Origin: a virus
Taxonomy: Duplodnaviria; Heunggongvirae; Uroviricota; Caudoviricetes
DNA length: 64,000 nucleotides
Direction: 5' to 3' (one strand)
Virus record (IMG/VR): IMGVR_UViG_2925891887_000001
The notes beneath the pieces are model-generated. The model was not told where the DNA came from. It worked only from the letters and a program-made list of their open reading frames with translations, and did not search any database. Below, in pieces: positions 8,171 through 39,882 of this stretch. The position numbers and the translations under genes were made by a program. Position 1 is the stretch's first letter. Every line of letters starts with the position of its first letter.

Positions 8171-8584
8171 ATGGCAAGAGGTATGTATGTCTTATGCGAA
8201 ATTGAAGGTGTGCTGGCAAATACCAGCCATCGTAAATCTGTATCTGACTCGGATGCAGGCCAATTCATTGCCGGTGATGAACTCATTTTCCCCACCAGCC
8301 GTATGTTGCGTGGTTTTGCTCGCTCAGGGGCTGAAGTGGTGCTTATCAGTAGCCGCTCTGAAACTCTTGAAGCGCCCACTAAACGATGGCTGAAAGATTT
8401 TGGTGTTGATTACGACTGGCTTCACCTCGTACCGAATAGCACTAGTTATGAGAAGCATATTAAGCGCACATTAGCGGAGCATAAAGGCGATCTGCTTATC
8501 GCTGCGCTGGTGCACGATCCTCGACTCCGTGCCGCTTTAGCTGACTCTCATCATAGACCGGTCATCTATGAGGTGAGCAAATGA
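8171..8584 (+). CDS. HAD-fold-like protein, possible nucleotidase (motif I degenerate)
   Basis: ATG 8171 directly follows the thyA stop. N-terminal VLCEIEGVLA resembles HAD motif I (DxDGVL) but has Glu in place of both Asp. Context is nucleotide metabolism. Confidence 0.3.
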   Translation: MARGMYVLCEIEGVLANTSHRKSVSDSDAGQFIAGDELIFPTSRMLRGFARSGAEVVLISSRSETLEAPTKRWLKDFGVDYDWLHLVPNSTSYEKHIKRTLAEHKGDLLIAALVHDPRLRAALADSHHRPVIYEVSK

Positions 8585-9057
8585 AGATGATAGCTGCTGT
8601 TGGCCGTAACTATGAGATCGGCATAGCGAACGAACTGCCCTGGCGTTGTTCTACCGATCTGAAGCTATTTAAGAGACTCACCAAAAACGCCACTGTCGTT
8701 ATGGGGCGTAAAACGATGGAAAGTCTCAAACGCCCTCTTCCAGAGCGTCATAACCTCGTTTTGACGCGCTCTCATGGCTTTGTACCAAATGGATTCTACC
8801 CTGCTGGTGTGGATGATGTGTTGCGATTACCAGAGCCAGTGTGGGTGATTGGCGGGGAACAAATTTACTCGCTATTCATGCCGCATGTTGAAGAGATTTG
8901 GCTCTCCCACATCGGCGTTGATGTGCCAAACGCCGATGCATTCTTCCCGGCAAGCATGATGCGTAATTTAGGCTTTGTGCCTGTTGAAACAGCTTATACC
9001 CAACGAGCCAGCGAGGAAGAGCCTGGCTTTTCGCAGATCGTATACAGAAGGTCGTAA
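8581..9057 (+). CDS. folA: dihydrofolate reductase
   Basis: MIAAVGRNYEIGIANELPW...DLKLFKRLT...VVMGRKTMESL...RPLPERHNLVLTR is the classic DHFR pattern. ATGA overlap with the upstream gene. Confidence 0.9.
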   Translation: MKMIAAVGRNYEIGIANELPWRCSTDLKLFKRLTKNATVVMGRKTMESLKRPLPERHNLVLTRSHGFVPNGFYPAGVDDVLRLPEPVWVIGGEQIYSLFMPHVEEIWLSHIGVDVPNADAFFPASMMRNLGFVPVETAYTQRASEEEPGFSQIVYRRS

Positions 9058-9701
9058 TGGATTACCGGATTGGGATCACTGGTGCTCAGGGCAGTGGGAA
9101 AACAACCCTGGCTAAATATATCGACAAACATTACGGAATCCCTTACGTGGATGCTGGTGTCGGAAGTTTGATGAGCCGCCTCGGTGTTCGAGTAGGTGAT
9201 TCTATGCCTCTATATGAGCGGCTTCAGATTCAAATGGAAATAGCAAAGCATATAGAGCTACTTACACGTGGTGTTGAAGGCTTTGTTATCGATCGCACAC
9301 CTGCTGATGTTATGGCCTACACGTTGGATTTGGTCGGCCATACCAATGAAGATCGGTGTATTGAGTTAGCCCTCGATATCGAAAAGTTTTGCCACAAAAC
9401 TGCTATTTCAAACTTTAACGCCATTGCTGGCTTACGCCCGGGAGTCGCTCTCTCAGAGCGAGATTACTTGCGATCACAACGAGCATCATTAGACCGTCTG
9501 TATGTCGCTCGTATTGATGCGTTGATGTGCGGGGAACTGACAAAAATTCACCTGCATCCGCAAAGGGGAGATCTGCAAACCTTCGTCGTTTCCAACCGGT
9601 ATCGCACAGTTGAAGCAAGAGCCAGATCAGTGATGAGAATGCTAGATAACGCTGTAGAAAAGATAGAAAACCGGTTCTGTGGCCGAGTGACCGTTCATTA
9701 G
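9057..9701 (+). CDS. P-loop NTPase, putative (deoxy)nucleotide kinase
   Basis: Walker A GITGAQGSGKTTLAKY at the N-terminus, about 214 aa. Overlaps the DHFR stop (TAATG). Sits in the nucleotide-metabolism cluster. Confidence 0.45.
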   Translation: MDYRIGITGAQGSGKTTLAKYIDKHYGIPYVDAGVGSLMSRLGVRVGDSMPLYERLQIQMEIAKHIELLTRGVEGFVIDRTPADVMAYTLDLVGHTNEDRCIELALDIEKFCHKTAISNFNAIAGLRPGVALSERDYLRSQRASLDRLYVARIDALMCGELTKIHLHPQRGDLQTFVVSNRYRTVEARARSVMRMLDNAVEKIENRFCGRVTVH

Positions 9702-23461: not shown

Positions 23462-24691
23462 ATGATAATTGAACAAATAACCCCTTGCTCGGAGCTTGGA
23501 ATGACTGATACCGCTTTTTCAAAATCGTTACAAAAAGAAGTCGATCCTGAGCAGTACTTGGCGCTAAAGAATTTAGATGACAGCTCGGTTCATGCTATTG
23601 CCCGTGACGATATCATCTGCCCCATTTGCAAAGTTGGAGGTGGTTCGTTCGTTAGAGCCACTAGGAATGGTGGCTATCACAAGAAGGCGCATTTCAGATT
23701 TACCGGTGAAGATGGTCAAGGCCATCATCCATCATGTGATTTCTATGGAGATAGACTAACATCTGAGGTGAAGCAGCACCTTGTCTCATTCACAAAAGAT
23801 CGAACAAAGTATTCGCAGGTAATACGAAAGCTGGTCTGTGCCGGCATACAGGAAGGGATATTTACTCAAGAAAAAATGTGGCAGATGAGGGAATGGTTCT
23901 TCAATAAGCGAAAGGATTCCACATTTGAAATATGGTTAGAAAGCGAGCATTTAGACTGGCTTTATTATATTAGTGGGTTACGTGATGCATATCTAGCATG
24001 GACAACTCCTGATATTCTACCTTTCGCGCCCATTCAGGTTACTGTGCCTGGTTTTTCTTGGAAGCGTGCGATTGACAAAGAGGTGCTAAGAGTTCACATC
24101 AAGACTCTCCAGCAATTGCGTGAAATTTCAGTCTCACATAGAGACATTGCTGTAATCTTAGAACACATAAACAATAATCGTGACCGCACAATTCTCGATC
24201 CATCGCATTTGGAGGACGAGATAAGTAAGACCTGTAAGCTTACTAGTTTTGTGATGGGCAATTACATTGAGTTTCAGACAAAAACGGTTAGCGACAGAGC
24301 ATACGGGGAAGCTAAGTTTCTGGCATTTGCAGCACTTTTGTTGTTCGTGTCAGATTGGGACCTCAACATTGCTATTGGTAAGTTTTCTAAGATTGCCAGA
24401 GTGAAGGAGGTTGATGACATGCTGGCTGGTAATTTCATTGGTCTTAATCCTTACTTCCGATACGACCTGGCTAATGCAGTGAAGAGATTGCAGGATAACT
24501 GGCCGATTGAATACCAAGAGTTGGAGCATTGGAATGTTGAGAAATCCATGCGTGACGCATATGAAAAGTGGCGTGCGACAGAGCCTGAATTCGCTCCACC
24601 CCTATTGCCAGACTTGTATATTGCCAAACATGAGAAAGAAGTCGCACAAGACGAGCAAGTCAGGCAGTGGATTAAGAACGGGGATGTTTGA
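23462..24691 (+). CDS. hypothetical protein with an N-terminal Cys/His zinc-ribbon-like motif (409 aa)
   Basis: CPICKVGGGSF...HKKAHFRFTGEDGQGHHPSCD. Lower GC than its surroundings. The start is uncertain, with an alternative ATG near 23501 after GGAG. Confidence 0.55.
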   Translation: MIIEQITPCSELGMTDTAFSKSLQKEVDPEQYLALKNLDDSSVHAIARDDIICPICKVGGGSFVRATRNGGYHKKAHFRFTGEDGQGHHPSCDFYGDRLTSEVKQHLVSFTKDRTKYSQVIRKLVCAGIQEGIFTQEKMWQMREWFFNKRKDSTFEIWLESEHLDWLYYISGLRDAYLAWTTPDILPFAPIQVTVPGFSWKRAIDKEVLRVHIKTLQQLREISVSHRDIAVILEHINNNRDRTILDPSHLEDEISKTCKLTSFVMGNYIEFQTKTVSDRAYGEAKFLAFAALLLFVSDWDLNIAIGKFSKIARVKEVDDMLAGNFIGLNPYFRYDLANAVKRLQDNWPIEYQELEHWNVEKSMRDAYEKWRATEPEFAPPLLPDLYIAKHEKEVAQDEQVRQWIKNGDV

Positions 24692-24820
24692 GTGTAATTA
24701 GCTTAATCAATCAGTTGATAATGGCGGTCACAATTTGATTCTTTTCTATAAGAATCCGTTGATCGCCACTACTCTTCTTCCATACCTGCAATCACACCTT
24801 TAAATATCAATAGGTTAACG

Positions 24821-24850
24821 TTGTTTATACCAATAAGAAAACAACTAAAT
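24821..24850 (+). promoter_or_regulatory. promoter cassette (half operator)
   Basis: TTGTTTATACCAATAAGAAAACAACTAAAT. The AAAACAACTAAATAACA part recurs at 25069-25085. Confidence 0.4.
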
Positions 24851-24898
24851 AACAGATCAACGAAACATCAACGCTTTCACCCGATTTGGTCTAAAAAA

Positions 24899-24927
24899 TT
24901 GACGTTTTCACACATCACTTCTTATAC
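24899..24927 (+). promoter_or_regulatory. sigma70-like promoter
   Basis: TTGACG, a 17-nt spacer, then TTATAC. Confidence 0.4.
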
Positions 24928-25673
24928 CCGTAATTCTACGCAGCAGATAGCGCTACAGCGTCCAAATTTCACCACAGACGACTCAACACACTACCAACAA
25001 AAACACACGCTCAAAATCGCTCCCGTTGCGTTACACAACCATATAAACAACTTATTTTCAGGTATAACAAAACAACTAAATAACACACATGCCATTACCC
25101 AAAACAACCAACCTCTTTATGGCAGGCTACCGAAAAGACCCACCTCTTCTCCCCAGGCTACCGGACAACCAACCTAACTTTCACAGGCAATCCGAAAACA
25201 TTCATACGCGCGATACCCACGACACGCCATTACCCAAACAGCGAAGAAACACCAGAATCACTGAAAACCCAACGAAGCCTGTTACCGCAAGGATTCTCTC
25301 AATCCCAAAAGACACGAAACAGAACAATCACGGGAAACGCCATTACCCAATACACGAATAACTACAAAAGCCTTTCACACACTCCAGACAAACAACTCAA
25401 ACACAATAACGAAAGGAATCGCCCACCTGCCATTACTCCATACACGGAGAAGAACAATCACCAAAACGACGAGAACACCCCATAGAAGAACCACCGCAAA
25501 ACGAACGAAACCACATACACCGACAGAGAGAACAACACACCCAATTCACCAACAGAAATAGTCGCCGTATAGAACGTTCTGGAAGGAGTGAGCATTAACG
25601 CCTATAGAGAGGTTGAGACAGATAAAACACAACATGTATAGCGAAGAAGCCAGGTATGTATAAGTGGGGAGGG

Positions 25674-25697
25674 AAGGAGGGGTGTCGCCTCCTTTTT
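25674..25697 (+). terminator. intrinsic terminator
   Basis: AAGGAGG/CCTCCTT stem, 7-nt loop, T5 run. Confidence 0.65.
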
Positions 25698-25760
25698 CGT
25701 ATTTATTCAACTCCTGATTTTATCCCCCGTAACACCCCTACGGTCAGCCTTCGGTCCATA

Positions 25761-25893
25761 CAGGGAAAAGGTTGCATCCCGCTACAGAAACGGCTGGGTT
25801 GCCTTCGGGGAACGGCTGGAGGTTTTCAGGGAAACGGTCGAGTTGCCTGTGTGGATTTCGGGAAAAGGCTCGATGCCGGTTCAGGAACGGTGG
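25761..25893 (+). repeat. direct-repeat (iteron-like) array 1, six copies of the (C)GGGAAA(A/C)GG(C/T)NG type
   Basis: Copies start at 25761, 25785, 25806, 25827, 25859 and 25882, with spacings of 24, 21, 21, 32 and 23 nt. Confidence 0.75.
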
Positions 25894-26204
25894 CGTACCG
25901 GTATAGCGAGAGGGAGAGTTGCGGCTACCCACCTGTAATGTGCGGGAAGAAGAGAGGCGCTCACGTAGGCGGACTTGCTTACCGCTGGATTCCCTCTGAA
26001 TGCCCAGCTACAGCGTAATTGTGCCAGACAGCCAGCGGGTCACAATCGATTTCAGTAGGTTTTTGGGGAGAGGATTACTCTGCCACCAGCCACTTTCGGC
26101 CACTAAATCAGAATAATGTAAAAAGTGCACTCGGTACTGAACCTGAAAACTCACTGCCAAAACCACATTCACCGGAATAAAATCCTTTTTCGCCTGTGCG
26201 TTAT

Positions 26205-26240
26205 TGCGATAATAACACCAACAAGTAAACAACATGTTTA
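26205..26240 (+). promoter_or_regulatory. promoter/operator cassette
   Basis: Extended -10 TGCGATAAT (26205-26213), then TAAACAACATGTTTA (26226-26240). Confidence 0.55.
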
Positions 26241-26271
26241 GACGTTATATAAACGAAGTGAGGATGAAGAG

Positions 26272-26490
26272 ATGATTAAGATGCCTGTGACGGTTGAGGT
26301 GTGGGGCGTGGATTCCCTGGCTGAGTGTCTGGATGCAGTGGGGCCGGAGTTGTACCGCAAGTTGTGGTCGTTCGTCCCGGCAGAAGGGGAACCGCCCAAG
26401 GGGAAGGATATCTGGCACCTGCTGAGTGAAGATGAAAAGCGGGAGCTGGTGGACGCGGTACACAGCGAGTTCCCGGGCGACGAAGATTAA
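26272..26490 (+). CDS. hypothetical protein (72 aa)
   Basis: ORF after GAGGATGAAGAG, followed by a terminator. Confidence 0.5.
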   Translation: MIKMPVTVEVWGVDSLAECLDAVGPELYRKLWSFVPAEGEPPKGKDIWHLLSEDEKRELVDAVHSEFPGDED

Positions 26491-26497
26491 GAGTGAG

Positions 26498-26518
26498 GCC
26501 ACCAGCACGGTGGCTTTT
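26498..26518 (+). terminator. intrinsic terminator
   Basis: GCCACC/GGTGGC stem, 5-nt loop, TTTT tail. Confidence 0.7.
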
Positions 26519-26580
26519 GTCGCTATTAACCTCCGGGCAGCGCAACACCGTAACGATATACTTTGTGGCCGTTTTCTTAC

Positions 26581-26617
26581 TGGTATTGTTTACGCAATTT
26601 AGAAAACAACATGTTTA
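26581..26617 (+). promoter_or_regulatory. promoter/operator cassette
   Basis: TGGTATTGT, then AGAAAACAACATGTTTA. The 57-bp unit 26561-26617 is duplicated at 27045-27101. Confidence 0.55.
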
Positions 26618-26628
26618 AGGATTGCTTT

Positions 26629-26958
26629 ATGTTTACAAATATCGACATCAACCAAATCAAGAAATTAACTCAAAAAGAGTTTGATCAGTTTTATGAGTTA
26701 GAAGGTTGGTCTTCCACTCTGATCAATTCAAGATGGGTGCTGGAGCTGATGACTCGTGATGACGCACCTGCTTTGATGATTTGCGACATGGGTGAAGATG
26801 CTGACTTTATGGATATGAGCGAATTTTGTGTGGACACATACAACCGCAGCCAGAAGTACTACTTCACATGCGATAGCGAAAATGACGTGATTTCTAAGGT
26901 CTATCTTCACCTCGTCCAGCATTGGGACGTTCAGGAGTTTCTTGAAGTATTCGAGTAA
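26629..26958 (+). CDS. hypothetical protein (109 aa)
   Basis: ATG 26629 follows AAGGA. Confidence 0.5.
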   Translation: MFTNIDINQIKKLTQKEFDQFYELEGWSSTLINSRWVLELMTRDDAPALMICDMGEDADFMDMSEFCVDTYNRSQKYYFTCDSENDVISKVYLHLVQHWDVQEFLEVFE

Positions 26959-27064
26959 CCCCAACCAAAGCCAGCATTGCTGGCTTAATTTCTCTATAGA
27001 CGCAGGGAAGAACCTGCATATCGCTCATGCGCCTGATCAATATGCTTTGTAGCCGTTTTCTTAC

Positions 27065-27101
27065 TGGTATTATTTACGCCATTGAGAAAACAAGTTGTTT
27101 A
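27065..27101 (+). promoter_or_regulatory. promoter/operator cassette
   Basis: TGGTATTAT, then GAGAAAACAAGTTGTTTA. Confidence 0.55.
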
Positions 27102-27111
27102 CGGAGTTGTA

Positions 27112-27423
27112 ATGAAAAAATCATTGGTTCTTGGTCTGGACAAAGACCAGAAGAGAAAAGAGAAGCCTGCGCTGGTTGCTCAATTAACTTTGCTGGACAT
27201 CGTTGCCAATGGGACCTCTATTCGTCTGTTCCGTGAAACAGCGGTGTCTTTCGATAAAAACACCTTTACTCGTTATGTAATGAATGTTCGTCGCCAGCGT
27301 GGAAAAGGCTGGGTGGCATTTCAAAGAATGTGGCCGGAACATCAGCTCGAACTGGCTTTGATGGAAGTTAACCGCGTGGCCCAGCAAGAGATTCAGAGAG
27401 CATCAGTGATGGCAATAGCCTGA
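27112..27423 (+). CDS. hypothetical basic protein (103 aa)
   Basis: ATG 27112 follows ACGGAG. Confidence 0.5.
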   Translation: MKKSLVLGLDKDQKRKEKPALVAQLTLLDIVANGTSIRLFRETAVSFDKNTFTRYVMNVRRQRGKGWVAFQRMWPEHQLELALMEVNRVAQQEIQRASVMAIA

Positions 27424-27457
27424 TAATGTGCAAGTGGCAATTAGTCGACAGTACGAC

Positions 27458-27485
27458 AGCCCCGCCATCCTTACGGGGCTTTTTT
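27458..27485 (+). terminator. intrinsic terminator
   Basis: AGCCCCG/CGGGGCT stem, 9-nt loop, T5 run. Confidence 0.8.
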
Positions 27486-27490
27486 GTATT

Positions 27491-27506
27491 GTAAGTACAT
27501 ACTTAC
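27491..27506. repeat. GTAAGTA-type palindrome (GTAAGTACATACTTAC, perfect arms)
   Basis: Read directly. Lies 44 nt upstream of ATG 27550. Confidence 0.85.
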
Positions 27507-27549
27507 GATCATAGAATAGAAAAATAACCAATACACTACGGAGAGTGAA

Positions 27550-27945
27550 ATGACCGTTAAACGCGAAAAACTGACAGTTGATGTTTACTATGCCTCTGAA
27601 ACCGCCGAAGGTAAGAATGTGGCAAAAATCACCGTTGTTACGTACAACACCGAAACTGGTGCCGAAGTACAGGCCAGTACGATCGTGCGTAAAGGTGATG
27701 CCTCCGGCGGCGAGTACGCGACTCAATACCAGTCCATTCTCGATGCAACTGACCCGCTGCTGCTGAAAATCGAGAACTACTTCCGCCAGGTTGATGAAGA
27801 GGTGTTTGAAACCATGATGAATATGGTTAACACCGTATTCGCCTCCAGCCTGAATACCAACACTACCTGGATTGGTCAGTACGGCCTGCGCATTACCTCT
27901 GGCATTCCTGCCGACACCTTAATCCCTGAAAGCGTATTCGCTTAA
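27550..27945 (+). CDS. hypothetical protein (131 aa)
   Basis: ORF after ACGGAGAG. Confidence 0.55.
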   Translation: MTVKREKLTVDVYYASETAEGKNVAKITVVTYNTETGAEVQASTIVRKGDASGGEYATQYQSILDATDPLLLKIENYFRQVDEEVFETMMNMVNTVFASSLNTNTTWIGQYGLRITSGIPADTLIPESVFA

Positions 27946-27953
27946 TCCTCTTT

Positions 27954-27979
27954 AAATGGCGCGTAAACCGCGCCATTTT
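27954..27979 (+). terminator. intrinsic terminator
   Basis: AAATGGCGCG/CGCGCCATTT stem, 5-nt loop. Confidence 0.65.
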
Positions 27980-27991
27980 ATTAAGCCCGAT

Positions 27992-28028
27992 AACAATTTG
28001 TTTTCTGCCTTATCTGATTTGTGAAAAT
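27992..28028 (+). promoter_or_regulatory. promoter cassette with upstream operator
   Basis: AACAATTTGTTTT (27992-28004), then TGTGAAAAT (28020-28028). Confidence 0.5.
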
Positions 28029-28062
28029 GATTTCACTGAAGCAAGTTAATAAGGAAACCATC

Positions 28063-28437
28063 ATGGGACTTGATATCTATATCGAGACACAGCCTAAAAA
28101 CGATCTGAATAACGAGGCATCCAGAAAGCAGGTTGCTTACTTCCGTAAGTTCAATGCGCTCGTTGGGTGGATGGAGCGCAACGTAGGTGAAGTCGAAAAT
28201 TGTGAGCTTTTAGAATTAACGATGAATGACATTTGTTTTCTGAAGGCTCATTTGATGCACATAAACGAAAGTAATTGCGAAGAGTACTTGCCTACCCGGG
28301 AAGGTTTTTTCTTCGGCAGTCAGGAGTACGATGAAGGTTACTGGCATGATGTGGGGCAGTTGAAAGAGCTTGTGGAAGATCTGATTAAGAACCACGACTT
28401 TCACAATAACAGACTGACCTTCTGCGCCTGGTGGTAA
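28063..28437 (+). CDS. hypothetical protein (124 aa)
   Basis: ATG 28063 follows AAGGAAACC. Confidence 0.5.
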   Translation: MGLDIYIETQPKNDLNNEASRKQVAYFRKFNALVGWMERNVGEVENCELLELTMNDICFLKAHLMHINESNCEEYLPTREGFFFGSQEYDEGYWHDVGQLKELVEDLIKNHDFHNNRLTFCAWW

Positions 28438-28439
28438 AT

Positions 28440-28583
28440 ATGGGCGATTTCAAGAAACGCCTGAAGGAAAGAGCCGAGATGGTCAGAAAGCAAAACGCCT
28501 CTTCTGTCATCAGATACGCAAGGCAGTTTAGTCGCAACAACAAATCAGTTGAGGAAAAGATCCTTAGCGTAATCGTGCGATAA
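28440..28583 (+). CDS. small basic protein (47 aa), below the ORF-track cutoff
   Basis: ATG lies 3 nt after the upstream stop. Translates to MGDFKKRLKERAEMVRKQNASSVIRYARQFSRNNKSVEEKILSVIVR. A hairpin follows at 28589-28612. Confidence 0.35.
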   Translation: MGDFKKRLKERAEMVRKQNASSVIRYARQFSRNNKSVEEKILSVIVR

Positions 28584-28734
28584 TTATTAAGGCCATCAGC
28601 ATTGGTGGCCTTAAATGACCATCTTGTTTCCCGCAGGCTAAAAACACCAACCTCTTACCTCCAGGCAACCGACAAACCCACCTGTTCCCGTCCGGCTACC
28701 GCAACTTTCCACTTTGACGCCTTATTCGTACAAC

Positions 28735-28766
28735 GATAATTAACACCAACAAGAAAACAATTTGTT
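28735..28766 (+). promoter_or_regulatory. promoter/operator cassette
   Basis: GATAAT (28735-28740), with TTGACG at 28714-28719. Then AAAACAATTTGTT (28754-28766). Confidence 0.55.
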
Positions 28767-28787
28767 ATTTACGATAAGGAATTAATC

Positions 28788-29270
28788 ATGAATTTTATCG
28801 CTACTGTAAACGCACCCGCACATGGCAATATCGCTGTAACGTTCTCTGACATTGAAAAACGAGTACTTGGTGCATGGCGCGACAATGAGACGGTAGAACT
28901 GTCAGCACAAGAAAAATGCATTATTGCACGCGACATCATTGGCAATCGTCGTTACTCGCGGGTATTTGAGAAAGCGTATGTGGTAAATTCTGGATTCGGA
29001 ACGTTCGTCTTTCCGGTGCGCTCCGGGCGATTCTGCCAGTCCAAGCTGATTGAGTTCGCTACGCAGATTTCTTTCTGGATTAAAACTCAATCGTCGTTCA
29101 AATTTTCCGACGATGAAGCAGTATCGCAGGGGATGCGGATCGCCAACAATGCAATTAAATGCAAAAACATTACGTATACCGCTGGCGTTGATACATGGAA
29201 ACTGTTTTGCGCTAACTTTATGCTGAATGTATACGCAAGCAACCGCATCCACATCCTTGATGGCGTGTAA
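28788..29270 (+). CDS. hypothetical protein (160 aa)
   Basis: ORF after TAAGGAAT. Confidence 0.55.
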   Translation: MNFIATVNAPAHGNIAVTFSDIEKRVLGAWRDNETVELSAQEKCIIARDIIGNRRYSRVFEKAYVVNSGFGTFVFPVRSGRFCQSKLIEFATQISFWIKTQSSFKFSDDEAVSQGMRIANNAIKCKNITYTAGVDTWKLFCANFMLNVYASNRIHILDGV

Positions 29271-29276
29271 CTGAGA

Positions 29277-29300
29277 AGAGGGCCAGAAACGGCCCTTTCT
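29277..29300 (+). terminator. intrinsic terminator
   Basis: AGAGGGCC/GGCCCTTT stem. The loop itself contains an iteron-like CAGAAACGG. Confidence 0.55.
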
Positions 29301-29438
29301 CTATAGCCACCAGCTGCCGCAGGGAAATTTTCAGAAACGGCGAGGAACGTATTCATGAGCCGACGGGGAACGGCCAGGATTTTTTCGGGAAACGGCTGCA
29401 TTTGCCTTTGTGTAGAAAAAACATCGGGAAGCTGGTGG
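29284..29438 (+). repeat. direct-repeat (iteron-like) array 2, same motif family as 25761-25893
   Basis: Copies at 29284, 29320, 29332, 29342, 29364 (CGGGGAACGGCCAGG), 29386 (CGGGAAACGGCTGC) and 29425. Three of them are spaced by exactly 22 nt. Confidence 0.7.
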
Positions 29439-29796
29439 AATCCAACCAGCGGTTGTCGGACAGGTGAGCGGGGAAAATTATGATGACTTTCGTCACCTGA
29501 GACATCCAGATTTCTTTCGTAGCATAATCACATACGTGATTAAGTGGTGTGATTATGTGAAAAATCACGCGCACATAATACGCGAGCGGATACGGAACAA
29601 AACAAAATGCCGATCCGCGCCGACAAATAAACGCGGATCATAAAGCAAGACTAAAAGCCAATGATTAACTATGCGCTATAACGCGTTTTAAGCGCGTTAA
29701 TGTGTTAAGTAATGGGTATGTACTGGCAAGGATATAAAAGCGCGTCTATGGCGTTATTTTGGCGCTTATTTTTATGTTGTTGGAGTGAGTTAAAGA

Positions 29797-29826
29797 CAAT
29801 AAAAAACGCGCCATCAATGGCGCGTT
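29797..29826 (-). terminator. intrinsic terminator of the minus-strand island operon
   Basis: AACGCGCCAT/ATGGCGCGTT 10-bp stem, followed on the minus strand by T6. Confidence 0.75.
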
Positions 29827-29847
29827 ATTGTGGAAGTATTGGAAACG

Positions 29848-29871
29848 AAAAAAGCGCCCATAGTGGGCGCT
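29848..29871 (-). terminator. intrinsic terminator (first of a tandem pair)
   Basis: AGCGCCCA/TGGGCGCT stem with T5 on the minus strand. The same hairpin family occurs at 30349-30369. Confidence 0.75.
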
Positions 29872-29876
29872 CGATT

Positions 29877-30107
29877 TTATTTGTGTAAACTGATTTTAAA
29901 TCCCATTTCTACGAACGCTTTTAACATTAAAAATATATCAGCGTCGTTCACGTCTGCTTTTTTTCGCTCCTGGTCGCTCAATAAGTCAATTTTGCGCGTC
30001 GTTTCATCTATAAGCTCGACTACACGCCCAGCGTAACCAGCGATCCCAGCGATGCGATTAACATAATATTCATTATGGACGTTAACGCCAGCGATAAGAA
30101 CAAACAT
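29877..30107 (-). CDS. hypothetical protein (76 aa)
   Basis: ORF in the AT-rich island with AAGGAG upstream on the minus strand. Confidence 0.45.
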   Translation of the reverse strand: MFVLIAGVNVHNEYYVNRIAGIAGYAGRVVELIDETTRKIDLLSDQERKKADVNDADIFLMLKAFVEMGFKISLHK

Positions 30108-31326: not shown

Positions 31327-31851
31327 TTAAAATGGAAGGATTCGTTCAACCCAATCGAAGAAAACAAGTATTTTTCTGCCGTCTTCTAACTTAAGAGTGA
31401 CCTGGCAAGCATCAACGCCTCTTGACACCCCTTCTATTTCACGACCGTCTGTCATGTAGACCCTTATAGATTGGTCGTTTTGATAAGCCTTGCGACATAT
31501 CGCAAAAAAGTCACGGCGTGATGGCTGATTGTCAACATAGTCTGGATGTATTGTTAGCCTACCTTTGAACTCGCGAGCAATGTCATCGATTACACCTGAT
31601 TCAATTGTGCTAATGCGCTCAAGTGGGAGTCTTATACGATTTTCTTTATCATATGGAATCGGGCATAAATCTAGCTTATTGCGTGAAGGCATTGTCCCCT
31701 GAACGTACATGCAAAACACCTGACCGTCTTCAAGCGTGACTCTTACAGGAATGTTGTTCTTCCGCCAGAACATAAGTATGTTCTCAGCATGTTCGTAGTC
31801 TCGCGGCCAGACTTCAGCCGGTATGCCGTAGGTGATGTCCAATGTTCTCAT
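31327..31851 (-). CDS. hypothetical protein with an internal duplication (174 aa)
   Basis: Two copies of the pattern hRVxhxDGxxh...G (IPVRVTLEDGQVFCMYVQG and SIRVYMTDGREIEGVSRG). ATGA overlap with the upstream gene. Confidence 0.55.
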   Translation of the reverse strand: MRTLDITYGIPAEVWPRDYEHAENILMFWRKNNIPVRVTLEDGQVFCMYVQGTMPSRNKLDLCPIPYDKENRIRLPLERISTIESGVIDDIAREFKGRLTIHPDYVDNQPSRRDFFAICRKAYQNDQSIRVYMTDGREIEGVSRGVDACQVTLKLEDGRKILVFFDWVERILPF

Positions 31852-39249: not shown

Positions 39250-39882
39250 ATGACGGTCGAAAAAGACGAGGTAAAAACTCGCCTGACACCAGCGGAGTGG
39301 GCCGAAGCTGAAGCCAAATGGACGTCAGGCGAATATACACTCTCAAAGCTGGAGGAAGAGTACGGCATTCGTCGTGAAACACTCTCCAGACATTTCAAAA
39401 AGCGAGGATTAGAGAAAGGCGCGGACTCTGTTGGGAAGATGGTTCGTGAGTCTCTTAAATCTGACGCAGAGCTTCGCGCTAAAGCCCGTGCGGAAAAGAT
39501 AGAAGAACGTCGTACACGTTATGACGGCTGGGCGTATGCGTTGGGGCAGATGGTGATGGTCGAAGTCACTACGGCCAAACGTGAGGGTAAGCCTTTAGGG
39601 GCGATTGAGGATTCTCTCAAGAGCTTACAGAGAGCCAGTAATACCCTTGCAAAATGCTTTGAAGTTTCGTCCAAAGCATTGGGCATGGATCATGCGGAAA
39701 ATGACGAGGAAGAAATTCCGAACCTGGTATTTGGTGAGCTTACGCCTTCCCAGGTGGCGAAATTACGTCAGGAAGACGACGAGCCTGAAATCATCGATGA
39801 CGAATTGCTTGAGACGTTGGAAGAAGAAGCTCTAAGCGAATTTGATGCGACAGATGATGGAAGTGAAGGGGAGGACGAATAA
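39250..39882 (+). CDS. terminase small subunit
   Basis: Lies directly upstream of TerL and overlaps it (TAATG). N-terminal HTH-like YTLSKLEEEYGIRRETLSRHFKKRG. Acidic C-terminus. Confidence 0.6.
   Translation: MTVEKDEVKTRLTPAEWAEAEAKWTSGEYTLSKLEEEYGIRRETLSRHFKKRGLEKGADSVGKMVRESLKSDAELRAKARAEKIEERRTRYDGWAYALGQMVMVEVTTAKREGKPLGAIEDSLKSLQRASNTLAKCFEVSSKALGMDHAENDEEEIPNLVFGELTPSQVAKLRQEDDEPEIIDDELLETLEEEALSEFDATDDGSEGEDE

What the first reader, a model, noticed from the sequence alone, without database searches (positions are those of the whole stretch)
25761..29438. Two iteron-like arrays of GGGAAACGG-type direct repeats 3.4 kb apart, each just downstream of a terminator
- Array 1 (25761-25893) has six copies, such as CAGGGAAACGGTCG and CGGGGAACGGCTGG, spaced by 24, 21, 21, 32 and 23 nt.
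- Array 2 (29284-29438) carries the same family, such as CGGGGAACGGCCAGG and CGGGAAACGGCTGC, with three copies exactly 22 nt apart.
- All copies are in the same orientation.
- Each locus also has the CA-rich AGGCTACCG...CCACCT motif upstream (25124-25180 and 28640-28700).

Direct repeats at a periodicity of about two helical turns are the hallmark of iteron replication origins and copy-control loci, such as P1 oriR/incA, or of plasmid centromeres. No Rep-like gene is recognisable between them, only six or seven small ORFs. An alternative reading is GGA-containing RNA motifs, CsrA-type sites, in read-through transcripts.
Basis: partly seen in the sequence, partly recalled or inferred. Interest (0 to 1): 0.68.

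Follow-up and report, generated by a model that had tools for sequence, protein, structure and literature searches.

The report
Conserved GGGAAACGG arrays in a phage-plasmid
Two real, strongly conserved arrays of the 9-base motif GGGAAACGG sit just behind transcription terminators in an SSU5/pHCM2-type phage-plasmid; they are binding platforms for an unidentified factor and are not the plasmid's replication iterons.

Summary
The window is an E. coli SSU5/pHCM2/pMT1-type phage-plasmid. It carries exactly two same-strand clusters of GGGAAACGG-type 9-mers (25763-25890 and 29321-29395), each starting at a terminator hairpin, and there are no others in the 109-kb element.

The arrays are paralogous and conserved in more than 700 plasmids from eight or more genera. 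Distant relatives, with neighbouring proteins only 35-50% identical, keep exact GGGAAACGG copies although spacers, copy number (2-6) and spacing (11-34 nt) change.

The P1 oriR/incA reading fails:
- The element's real Rep gene lies outside the window.
- It is flanked by at least 15 iterons of a different motif (TTACCGCTGACAGCATAC).
- The arrays persist across three replicon types.

The CsrA-sponge and structured-RNA readings are not supported. There is no Rfam hit, fold z-scores are about 0 or higher, there is almost no covariation, and the region is silent in lysogen RNA-seq.

The binder is unknown. My best guess (about 0.3) is a DNA-level, transcription-shielded site set, most concretely centromere-like sites for the element's small ParA plus ribbon-helix-helix pair, which has no repeats of its own. 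The main rival (about 0.25) is single-stranded RNA landing pads, possibly for a neighbouring FljA-family protein that I found to be a tandem Hfq/Sm fold.

The parts
25763..25890 (+). Array 1: six GGGAAACGG-type 9-mers (25763, 25785, 25807, 25829, 25860, 25882)
   Evidence: Against the Citrobacter/Salmonella clade, the motif columns are 89% identical and the spacers 55%, with no indel over 128 nt. Relatives have lost whole units.
25671..25697 (+). Terminator-like hairpin immediately upstream of array 1. Its purine-rich 5' arm (GGGAAGGAG) is itself motif-like.
   Evidence: In relatives the stem is kept using G-T pairs, which would be allowed as G-U in + strand RNA (read by eye from the, 41 alignments; not counted).
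25705..25762 (+). Conserved linker between the hairpin and array 1 (ATTCAA ... CCCCCGTAAC ... CCTTCGG x2)
   Evidence: Alignment: ATTCAA is invariant and CCCCGTAAC nearly invariant. Function unknown; no sigma-70 consensus promoter.
29273..29301 (+). Terminator hairpin of the 160-aa ORF. Its loop carries a motif copy: CAGAAACGG here, CTGGAAACG in relatives.
29321..29395 (+). Array 2: AGGGAAATTTT, CAGAAACGG, GAGGAACGT, GGGGAACGG, (CAGGATTTTTT), GGGAAACGG. Relatives have GGGGAACCGaAGGGAAACGGccAGGGAAttttCGGGAAACGG with a 10-12 nt period.
   Evidence: A BLAST cross-match between array 2 and array 1 in L067 shows the two arrays are one family.
29396..29438 (+). Tail of array 2 (CTGCATTTGCCTTTGTGTAGAAAAAAC...CGGGAAGCTGGTGG). 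It resembles the long spacer of array 1 (25838-25859), so the two arrays appear to share more than the motif.
   Evidence: the resemblance to 25838-25859 was read by eye from the sequence.
29307..29314 (-). Chi octamer (CCACCAGC on the + strand), left member of an inverted Chi pair around array 2
   Evidence: (I1). Present in nearly all relatives.
29431..29438 (+). Chi octamer GCTGGTGG, right member of the pair. In relatives it lies at different distances from the array.
24899..24928 (+). Conserved promoter-like element TTGACG-N18-TATACC at the head of the C/A-rich unit
   Evidence: Alignment of 10 relatives and L087. The consensus scan does not call it because the last base of the -10 is C.
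24940..25670 (+). About 730-nt C/A-rich, G-poor noncoding unit upstream of array 1. It contains 4x GCCATTACCCAA, 3x CAGGCTACCG-N6-CC(C/A)ACCT (about 31-nt period) and one palindromic operator.
   Evidence: Composition is A 40%, C 30%, G 15%; GC skew is -0.36 to -0.57. Conserved at 66-70% over more than 600 nt, with indels that are not multiples of 3.
28620..28720 (+). Short paralogue of the C/A-rich unit (three CAGGCTA/CAGGCAACCG...CCACCT units), about 600 nt upstream of array 2
   Evidence: 76-81% identity to 25100-25175 in loci that lack the long unit.
31327..31851 (-). Candidate trans factor only: FljA-family (PF03614) protein with two tandem Sm/Hfq folds, 1.9 kb from array 2
   Evidence: Linked to the arrays only by constant synteny; no sequence evidence for binding.

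Best explanation
The two arrays are paralogous cis-acting sets of an asymmetric site (core GGGAAACGG, extended about 13 bp: YRGGGAAAMGGCYR). I think they most likely work on double-stranded DNA as cooperative binding platforms for one sequence-specific protein.

Each array is placed directly behind an intrinsic terminator, so the nucleoprotein complex is not swept by transcription. Consistent with that, the DNA is transcriptionally silent in the plasmid (lysogenic) state.

The most concrete role I can propose is centromere-like partition sites for the element's type Ib-like pair: a 222-aa ParA/MipZ-type ATPase plus a 117-aa partner that looks like a ribbon-helix-helix (RHH) protein with a basic tail. 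That pair is encoded about 40 kb away, outside the window, and has no repeat array next to it. This would parallel the dispersed centromeres of phage-plasmid N15 (my own knowledge).

Shown:
- The arrays exist and are under strong purifying selection on the motif.
- They are not the Rep iterons.
- They are the only short-motif noncoding arrays in the element besides the Rep iterons and the C/A-rich units.

Inferred:
- Action at the DNA level.
- The identity of the binder.
- The partition role.

I put about 0.5 on 'DNA-level protein-binding arrays' in general and about 0.3 on the partition version; the confidence given here is for the partition version.
For: - Motif selected, spacers free: 89% vs 55% identity. 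Exact GGGAAACGG copies are kept in L087 and L093, where neighbouring proteins are only 35-50% identical.
- Spacing in the main clades is 22 (49x), 11, 33/34 and 44, with one fixed 31, i.e. close to whole helical turns, and no indels between clades. Weaker half-sites lie 11-12 bp after full sites.
- Whole-unit gains and losses occur among close relatives, as in iteron and centromere arrays.
- Both arrays begin at terminators. CYRAN_103 is at the detection floor and CYRAN_104 close to it in LF82 lysogen RNA-seq (PMC9928086 S1 table). No sRNA was reported there in Y. pestis.
- No stable or conserved RNA fold.
- A ParA (PF09140/PF13614/PF01656) plus a 117-aa protein with an RHH-like sequence pattern exist, with no direct repeats beside them. 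A k-mer cluster scan of the whole plasmid finds no other noncoding array.
- The 117-aa protein is 91-100% identical across lineages in which the 160-aa ORF is 67-82% identical. Its genus distribution matches that of the arrays, except for Yersinia.
Against: - No binding data of any kind.
- In the distant relative L087 the four exact copies of array 1 are 28, 24 and 34 nt apart, which is not helically phased. RHH centromere proteins usually coat contiguous 4-11-bp repeats.
- Y. pestis pMT1 lacks the 117-aa protein yet keeps an intact array 2. The divergence is too recent for this to be decisive.
- The par operon promoter carries the dispersed palindrome GAAAACAAGTTGTTTC rather than a GGGAAACGG site. 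If the RHH protein autoregulates there, it recognises a different motif.
- All copies are co-oriented with transcription and one sits in a terminator loop. This is equally or better explained by an RNA-level reading.
- The arrays lie in the conserved phage part of the element, not beside rep/par.
Confidence: 0.3

Rival explanations
1. RNA-level platform. In terminator read-through or lytic-phase transcripts, the arrays are unstructured, purine-rich landing pads in which each GGGAAACGG is bound as single-stranded RNA. The binder could be the neighbouring FljA-family tandem-Sm (Hfq-like) protein or a host factor such as CsrA. The arrays would act as a protein sponge or as a 3'-end regulatory element.
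For: - All copies are on the transcribed strand and co-oriented with the upstream genes, and one copy sits in the loop of the terminator hairpin in every relative.
- + strand fold z-scores are mostly 0 or above, i.e. no more structured than shuffled sequence, and often less.
- Spacing is not phased in L087.
- A PF03614 protein (E 3e-80) lies 1.9 kb away and is syntenic in all relatives, including pMT1, L087 and L093. Its model is two Sm folds whose top structural matches are all Hfq.
- FljA-like regulators block fliC mRNA translation (PMC2652032).
- GGA density in array 1 is about 1 per 19 nt (counted by eye), which I recall as similar to CsrB.
Against: - The arrays are at or near the detection floor in lysogen RNA-seq.
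- No promoter is found between terminator and array, and array 2 starts 20 nt after a terminator.
- There is no significant similarity between the verified E. coli fliC 5'UTR and the arrays (PWM score 1.4).
- The motif stays exact while the FljA-like protein diverges to a marginal Pfam score in L093.
- No CsrB, CsrC or Rsm hit in Rfam. Conserved copies such as CAGAAACGG lack GGA, and selection covers ACGG, which CsrA does not need.
Confidence: 0.25
2. DNA-level regulatory sites rather than partition sites. The arrays would be oriented roadblocks or looping anchors, like mycobacteriophage L5 'stoperators' or lambda OL-OR looping. They would back up the terminators and bracket or silence the 3.4-kb cassette of small operator-controlled genes in the prophage state.
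For: - The site is asymmetric, about 13 bp, always in one orientation relative to transcription, and located at the ends of transcription units.
- The two arrays flank seven small genes; palindromic operator copies lie in the cassette, mostly in front of these genes.
- In lysogens, expression drops from CYRAN_102 (57) to CYRAN_103 (5).
Against: - No candidate binder. The likely master repressor (XRE-type HTH) more plausibly binds the palindromes.
- Terminators alone could explain the drop in expression.
- There are no promoters at the arrays for a loop to control.
Confidence: 0.15
3. Lytic-cycle DNA site: either an origin of lytic replication (two repeat sets kilobases apart, as in P4 ori/crr; possibly primed by an R-loop from G-rich RNA) or a terminase small-subunit recognition (pac/cosB-like) site.
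For: - The lambda cosB R1-R3 sites share the core GGAAACG/CGTTTCC.
- Array 2 is followed by a 450-600-nt conserved noncoding region rich in inverted and direct repeats, with a 77% AT stretch in L093 and nine tandem 8-mers in L087.
- The element encodes RNase HI, a UvsW-like helicase and a DnaB-like helicase.
- The + strand is G-rich along the whole element.
Against: - The arrays are 10-13 kb from the terminase genes. The putative small subunit (39250-39882) has no Nu1-type Pfam hit.
- No DnaA boxes. The AT-rich flank is not conserved (0.42-0.47 AT in L003).
- Array 2 lies at a convergent, not divergent, gene junction.
- The cumulative skew has no turning point there.
Confidence: 0.12
4. One reading: iterons of a plasmid origin or copy-control locus (P1 oriR/incA type), bound by the plasmid initiator.
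For: Direct repeats at about two helical turns, in two arrays a few kb apart.
Against: - The RepB-family initiator lies at 8262-9476 of NZ_CP019013.1, outside the window. It is flanked by 12 + 3 iterons TTACCGCTGACAGCATAC plus an AT-rich GATCTATATAAG repeat.
- That iteron motif is absent from the window, and GGGAAACGG clusters are absent from the rep region.
- The arrays are conserved in elements typed rep_cluster_488, IncFIB and rep_cluster_763.
- No Rep-like gene lies between or beside the arrays.
Confidence: 0.03

Closest known systems
P1 oriR / incA iterons (RepA-binding 19-bp repeats) and RepFIB-type iterons
   Same: Same-orientation direct repeats, about 22-bp spacing, two arrays separated by kilobases, variable copy number.
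   Different: No rep gene is associated. The element's own Rep iterons are a different sequence located elsewhere. The arrays are independent of replicon type. No DnaA boxes or AT-rich unwinding element.
Plasmid centromeres made of direct repeats (TP228 parH/ParG, R1 parC/ParR, pB171 parC1+parC2, R388 stbDR/StbA) and the dispersed centromeres of phage-plasmid N15 (own knowledge)
   Same: Short asymmetric repeats phased at about one or two helical turns, more than one array per replicon, sites that can lie far from the par genes and among phage genes, and a small ParA plus RHH-like partner present in the element.
   Different: Full sites are 22-34 bp apart rather than contiguous. The arrays are about 40 kb from the par operon. 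Binding is untested, and pMT1 keeps array 2 without the RHH protein.
Lambda cosB R sites bound by the small terminase subunit gpNu1
   Same: The core GGAAACG is identical (R3 GCGTTTCCG, R2 AGGAAACGA, R1 TCGTTTCCT), and there are several copies within about 120 bp.
   Different: In lambda the sites adjoin cosN and the nu1 gene and occur in mixed orientation. Here there are two arrays of 5-6 co-oriented sites, 10-13 kb from the terminase genes, and no Nu1-like protein was detected.
Mycobacteriophage L5 'stoperators' (own knowledge)
   Same: Asymmetric 13-14-bp sites, one orientation relative to transcription, intergenic, at the ends of transcription units.
   Different: Stoperators are single dispersed sites bound by the phage repressor. 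Here the sites are clustered in two arrays and the binder is unknown.
CsrB/CsrC/RsmY/RsmZ protein-sponge RNAs
   Same: GGA-rich repeats about every 20 nt on one strand.
   Different: No promoter-array-terminator unit, no hairpin-loop display, no Rfam match, silent in lysogens, and selection acts on a 9-mer that extends beyond GGA.

Membership tests
Iteron-type plasmid origin / copy-control locus (P1 oriR-incA, RepFIB) | Repeats are the binding sites of the replicon's own Rep initiator, i.e. the same motif as the iterons at the rep gene | tested here: not met
   The Rep iterons are TTACCGCTGACAGCATAC. This motif is absent from the window, and there is no GGGAAACGG cluster near rep.
Iteron-type plasmid origin / copy-control locus (P1 oriR-incA, RepFIB) | A rep gene adjacent to or between the arrays | tested here: not met
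   The seven ORFs between the arrays have no Pfam hit and only unknown-function PHROGs. The rep gene is about 35 kb away.
Iteron-type plasmid origin / copy-control locus (P1 oriR-incA, RepFIB) | DnaA boxes and an AT-rich unwinding element next to the iterons | tested here: not met
   One weak box within 64 kb of the arrays' surroundings. AT content is 0.41-0.50 at the arrays, and the flank is not consistently AT-rich in relatives.
Iteron-type plasmid origin / copy-control locus (P1 oriR-incA, RepFIB) | Direct repeats of about 17-22 bp at about two helical turns | tested here: met
   Spacing of 22 dominates (49 of 92 intervals), but it is 28/24/34 in L087.
Direct-repeat plasmid centromere (type Ib/II) | Array of short repeats bound by the centromere-binding protein of a ParA/ParM system carried by the same replicon | not testable with these tools
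   A ParA plus RHH-like pair exists and lacks adjacent repeats. Binding needs an experiment.
Direct-repeat plasmid centromere (type Ib/II) | Centromere adjacent to, usually upstream of, the par operon and overlapping its promoter | tested here: not met
   The arrays are about 40 kb from the par operon. Its promoter region holds the palindrome GAAAACAAGTTGTTTC instead.
CsrA/RsmA-sequestering sRNA (CsrB family) | Match to a curated CsrB/CsrC/Rsm covariance model | tested here: not met
   No hit at gathering thresholds in the window. With the E-value threshold (up to 5) over 24500-30000 only three unrelated weak hits appear, none over the arrays.
CsrA/RsmA-sequestering sRNA (CsrB family) | GGA motifs displayed in hairpin loops of a discrete promoter-to-terminator sRNA | tested here: not met
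   Fold z-scores are +0.58 and -0.24 in the window and mostly positive in 8 relatives. The covariation term is -0.78. No promoter follows the terminator. Expression is at or near the detection floor.
Lambda-type cosB / terminase small-subunit site | Sites adjoin the cleavage site and the small-subunit gene; Nu1-type winged-helix protein present | tested here: not met
   Only the core heptamer is shared. The putative small subunit at 39250-39882 has no Pfam hit and matches PHROG 867, 'DNA binding domain'. It lies 10 kb away.
FljA (PF03614) RNA operator | Sequence resemblance to the known FljA target, the fliC mRNA 5'UTR | tested here: not met
   The verified E. coli fliC leader gives only chance-level local alignments to the window and to 5 relatives, and a PWM score of 1.4.

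The most novel reading that the evidence does not exclude
The arrays, and perhaps the C/A-rich transcript upstream, are RNA elements of a phage-plasmid-encoded post-transcriptional system. Each single-stranded GGGAAACGG would be captured by a ring of the tandem-Sm (Hfq-like) FljA-family protein. The arrays would then act as multi-ring landing pads or sponges that switch the protein's activity, for example on host flagellin or phage mRNAs, between lysogeny and lytic growth. That would be a new class of viral protein-RNA regulatory module, and the first defined RNA motif for the FljA family.
Probability: 0.12. Interest if true: 0.75.

Novelty: new variant of a known kind. Interest (0 to 1): 0.5.

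Why it matters
SSU5/pHCM2/pMT1-type phage-plasmids are common in clinical E. coli, Klebsiella, Enterobacter and Salmonella; more than 700 plasmid records carry these arrays. They also form half of the plague plasmid pMT1. Their plasmid-state maintenance and lysis-lysogeny control are almost unstudied.

A cis element whose 9-mer is invariant across the family while everything around it drifts is very likely essential. Identifying its binder would define either the family's centromere, a new silencing device, its lytic origin, or an RNA target for the FljA/Hfq-like protein. It would also give a handle for curing or tracking these elements.

The same analysis exposes the probable global operator of the family and a long C-rich noncoding transcript. 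Together with the arrays, these outline an undescribed regulatory region.

Tried and rejected
- Rfam, at gathering thresholds on the whole window and by E-value on 24.5-30 kb: nothing relevant.
- RNA folding of both arrays and of the C/A-rich unit: z-scores +0.58, -0.24 and -0.78.
- The same folding for 8 relatives on both strands: + strand mostly 0 or above.
- RNAalifold on 8 array-1 sequences: covariation term -0.78, 3 of 39 pairs with double changes. Hairpins I picked by eye (CCG...CGG around motifs, UUCG loops) were not consistent between clades.
- fliC 5'UTR mimicry, prompted by the FljA homologue: the E. coli leader was verified, but alignments to the window and relatives are at shuffle level and the PWM score is 1.4.
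- Hfq distal-face (ARN)n runs in the C/A-rich RNA: 3 observed vs 5.8 expected, so it is not CrcZ-like.
- Published transcript data: Cyrano lysogen RNA-seq shows CYRAN_103 at the detection floor and CYRAN_104 close to it. The Y. pestis sRNA lists have nothing at array 2.
- DnaA boxes, cumulative GC skew, TRF and AT profiles: no origin signature.
- The k-mer cluster at 79.8-80.6 kb of the plasmid is a coding repeat of the tail fibre, with spacings that are multiples of 3.
- Genome contigs and viral-contig scans for deeper relatives and foreign arrays: only SSU5-like elements carry such arrays. The other exact-pattern hits are microsatellites, coding repeats or other unrelated tandem repeats.
- Papers on FljA's binding site (Yamamoto & Kutsukake 2006; Aldridge 2006) and a 2026 SSU5 preprint are not held.

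Full report
**What the window is.** The 4.9 kb around the finding is 94-99% identical to Escherichia phages CMS-2020a, PhiR41_1 and Cyrano, and to about 185 E. coli plasmids of about 110 kb. It shows weaker matches to Klebsiella phage-plasmids and Salmonella phage SSU5. The window is therefore part of an SSU5/pHCM2/pMT1-type phage-plasmid. The annotated neighbours are metG and small hypothetical genes on the + strand. These are followed by a - strand block (helicase, 'transcriptional regulator'), then ParB_N-domain proteins, terminase and structural genes.

**Checking the observation.**
- Array 1 has six 9-mers at 25763, 25785, 25807, 25829, 25860 and 25882, with spacing 22, 22, 22, 31, 22.
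- Array 2 has copies at 29321, 29332, 29342, 29365 and 29387, plus one in the loop of the preceding hairpin at 29284.
- All copies are on the + strand. With a position weight matrix (PWM) built from the copies, 9 of the 11 + strand hits of at least 12 bits in the 64-kb window are in the arrays, and none is on the - strand.
- A cluster scan of the complete 109-kb plasmid NZ_CP019013.1 finds only these two clusters, and 7 of 200 shuffles give any cluster.
- The hairpin at 25671-25697 is called as a terminator. The hairpin at 29273-29301 is clear in the sequence and has a better T-tract in relatives.
- The upstream C/A-rich units are real and homologous between the two loci.

**Conservation.**
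- Array 1 matches 712 plasmid records and array 2 matches 765. They come from Klebsiella, Escherichia, Enterobacter, Salmonella (pHCM2), Citrobacter, Cronobacter and Shigella, and for array 2 also from Yersinia pestis pMT1. Identity outside Escherichia is 70-79%.
- In alignments of 16 and 13 non-redundant representatives, the 9-mers are the conserved columns.
- Between the E. coli and the Citrobacter/Salmonella clades the motif columns are 89% identical and the spacers 55%, without a single indel over 128 nt.
- Close relatives differ by loss of whole units (L001, L036, L038, L071, L007).
- Array 2 in most relatives reads GGGGAACCGaAGGGAAACGGccAGGGAAttttCGGGAAACGG, a 10-12-nt period of full and half sites.
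- The tail of array 2 resembles the long spacer of array 1 by eye, and BLAST cross-matches the two arrays. The two loci therefore look like duplicates of one module: C/A-rich units, then about 600 nt, then a terminator hairpin, then the array.
- Two distant relatives are decisive for selection:
  - L087 (160-aa ORF 50% identical) has four exact GGGAAACGG in array 1 and two in array 2.
  - L093 (neighbouring proteins about 37% identical by tblastx, FljA-like protein barely detectable) has five exact GGGAAACGG, each followed 12 nt later by GAAAAGG or GAAACGG. These lie in a perfect 33-nt repeat directly behind a terminator, at the same convergent gene junction.
  - In these two relatives the spacings are 28/24/34 and 33.

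So the 9-mer is what is selected. Spacing is constrained within clades but not over the whole family.

**Testing the replication reading.**
- The rest of the plasmid holds a RepB-family initiator at 8262-9476. It is flanked by 12 downstream and 3 upstream copies of TTACCGCTGACAGCATAC and by an AT-rich GATCTATATAAG repeat, which is a textbook iteron origin.
- That motif is absent from the window, and the GGGAAACGG motif does not cluster at rep.
- The relatives that share the arrays are typed to three different replicons: rep_cluster_488, IncFIB and rep_cluster_763.
- The seven ORFs between the arrays have no family assignment beyond unknown-function PHROGs.
- There is no DnaA-box cluster. An AT-rich flank is present in L093 but not in L003, and the cumulative GC skew rises monotonically with no turning point.

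The P1 oriR/incA-type interpretation is rejected. A lytic origin is not excluded but has little support.

**Testing the RNA readings.**
- Rfam gives nothing.
- The arrays fold no better than shuffled sequence in the window (z = +0.58 and -0.24). In eight relatives the + strand z-scores are mostly positive.
- RNAalifold finds almost no covariation.
- In published RNA-seq of the lysogen LF82, whose phage-plasmid Cyrano is 97% identical over this region, the ORF calls overlying the C/A-rich unit (CYRAN_103) and array 1 (CYRAN_104) are at and near the detection floor respectively, while CYRAN_102 just upstream is expressed (PMC9928086, S1 table).
- The sRNA catalogue of Y. pestis lists three pMT1 sRNAs, none at array 2.
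- The motif differs from a CsrA site. Copies such as CAGAAACGG lack GGA, G/A toggles freely at motif position 4, and the ACGG part is as conserved as GGA.

A discrete, structured or lysogenic sRNA is therefore excluded. An unstructured RNA platform used during lytic growth is not.

**A candidate RNA-binding neighbour.** The 174-aa 'transcriptional regulator' at 31327-31851 (- strand) is a full-length member of Pfam PF03614, the FljA 'repressor of phase-1 flagellin' family (E 3e-80). It also gives a weak Hfq hit.
- An AlphaFold model (pLDDT 78.7) shows two consecutive helix-plus-five-strand Sm folds. All top Foldseek PDB matches are Hfq (TM 0.7-0.86 on the target).
- FljA-type proteins block translation of fliC mRNA (PMC2652032).
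- The gene is syntenic with array 2 in every relative examined, including pMT1, L087 and L093.
- I tested whether the arrays or the C/A-rich RNA mimic the fliC leader, which I verified against 3,517 E. coli genomes. They do not.

The link is therefore proximity only.

**A candidate DNA-binding partner.** Outside the window the element encodes a 222-aa ParA/MipZ-type ATPase followed by a 117-aa protein.
- The 117-aa sequence has a basic tail, then SRTMSLEDEYFELLEMM...RSDVIRAAIFHLAE. I read this as a ParG-like ribbon-helix-helix (RHH) protein. This is inference, with no Pfam hit.
- No direct repeats lie beside this operon.
- A k-mer cluster scan and TRF over the whole plasmid find no other noncoding short-motif arrays except the Rep iterons, the C/A-rich units and the two GGGAAACGG arrays. 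The remaining strong cluster is a coding tail-fibre repeat.
- The 117-aa protein is 91-100% identical across lineages. Its distribution by genus mirrors that of the arrays, except that Yersinia lacks it. pMT1 instead has a ParA/ParB pair, which I take to be the published P1/P7-type system (own knowledge).
- Against this candidate: the par promoter carries the dispersed palindrome rather than a GGGAAACGG site, full sites are not contiguous, and pMT1 retains array 2.

**Weighing.**
- Favouring DNA: the spacing in the main clades (22, 11, 33/34, 44 and a fixed 31 that keeps all six sites of array 1 on one face at about 10.8 bp per turn), the absence of indels, half-sites one turn after full sites, placement behind terminators, and transcriptional silence.
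- Favouring RNA: strict co-orientation with transcription, a copy in the terminator loop, no excess RNA structure, and the unphased spacing in L087.
- I put about 0.5 on DNA-level protein-binding arrays. Within that, 0.3 goes to centromere-like sites for the ParA/RHH pair, 0.15 to roadblock or looping regulators, and about 0.1 to a lytic origin or packaging site.
- On the packaging idea, the core GGAAACG is also the core of the lambda cosB R sites, but the arrays are 10-13 kb from the terminase genes.
- I put about 0.25 on the RNA platform, 0.03 on Rep iterons, and leave the rest unassigned.

**Comparison with known systems and novelty.** The arrays work like iterons or centromere repeats in form, but they fail the defining tests for a Rep-iteron origin, for an adjacent-operon centromere, for a CsrB-type sponge and for a lambda-type cosB. 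I found no description of them in the searchable literature on SSU5, pHCM2 or pMT1. I classify them as a new variant of a known kind: orphan iteron-like arrays of a phage-plasmid backbone, of moderate interest until the binder is known.

Noticed in passing
window 4760, 14979, 15708, 16422, 19329, 22952, 23003, 25043, 26225, 26602, 27086, 27989, 28753, 33980, 39170, 39195; also L009 19665-19685: A dispersed 17-bp palindrome, GAAAACAAnTTGTTTTC, occurs at 16 or more sites (41 strand-matches vs 5.9 expected). Most lie just upstream of small genes, one is inside the C/A-rich unit, two are in front of the putative small terminase gene, and one is at the parA promoter. It is probably the global operator of the phage-plasmid's master repressor, comparable to the scattered C1 operators of P1.
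   Followed up: partly
window 31327-31851 (-): The annotated 'transcriptional regulator' is an FljA-family protein (PF03614). Its predicted structure is two tandem Sm/Hfq domains, so the FljA family appears to be a duplicated Hfq-like RNA binder. It may repress host flagellin.
   Followed up: yes
window 24899-25700: About 750-nt noncoding unit with a conserved TTGACG-N18-TATACC promoter. Composition is extreme (A 40%, C 30%, G 15%; GC skew down to -0.57). It contains 4x GCCATTACCCAA and 3x CAGGCTACCG-N6-CCCACCTCTT, and ends in a hairpin. It is silent in lysogens. It looks like a giant rut-like, unstructured RNA; (ARN)n runs are not enriched. The CC(C/A)ACCTCTT units resemble the anti-Shine-Dalgarno sequence, and the complement CGGTAGCCTG resembles the RfaH ops core (own knowledge, untested).
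   Followed up: partly
window 29307-29314 (-) and 29431-29438 (+); 16 Chi sites in the window: An inverted pair of Chi octamers brackets array 2, oriented so that RecBCD entering from either side meets an active Chi before the array. Relatives keep the left one and have the right one at different positions; pMT1 has both mutated. Chi is about 8-fold over-represented in the window. The pair could instead form a long-range stem.
   Followed up: partly
window 29440-29880; L087 6730-6815; L093 3540-3800: The convergent intergenic region after array 2 is a conserved 450-600-nt noncoding block. In the window it has inverted repeats (CATAATCACA/TGTGATTATG, TTATGTG/CACATAA), GCGCTATAACG-type repeats and stacked bidirectional terminators. 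L087 has nine tandem 8-nt CTAAAYKG units there, and L093 has four TTATTTGAGAA repeats and a 77% AT stretch. It may be a further cis-acting site (origin- or centromere-like).
   Followed up: partly
L009 19717-20744 (NZ_CP019013.1 87716-88743, outside the window): A small ParA/MipZ-type ATPase plus a 117-aa protein with a basic tail and an RHH-like sequence. There are no repeats next to the operon. The 117-aa protein is 91-100% identical across genera and absent from Yersinia pMT1.
   Followed up: partly
[not shown]
   Followed up: partly
Their PHROG relatives include ParB-like nucleases and methyltransferase-associated domains. Nothing links them to the arrays.
   Followed up: partly
window 25666-25690: The purine-rich 5' arm of the hairpin before array 1 (GGGGAGGGAAGGAGGGG; GGGAAGGGGAAGAGGGG in relatives) contains FtsK KOPS-type octamers (GGGNAGGG). 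It is also complementary over 7 nt (GAAGAGG) to the CCTCTTC part of the C/A-rich units about 500 nt upstream, so an alternative pairing could compete with the hairpin. Not tested.
   Followed up: no
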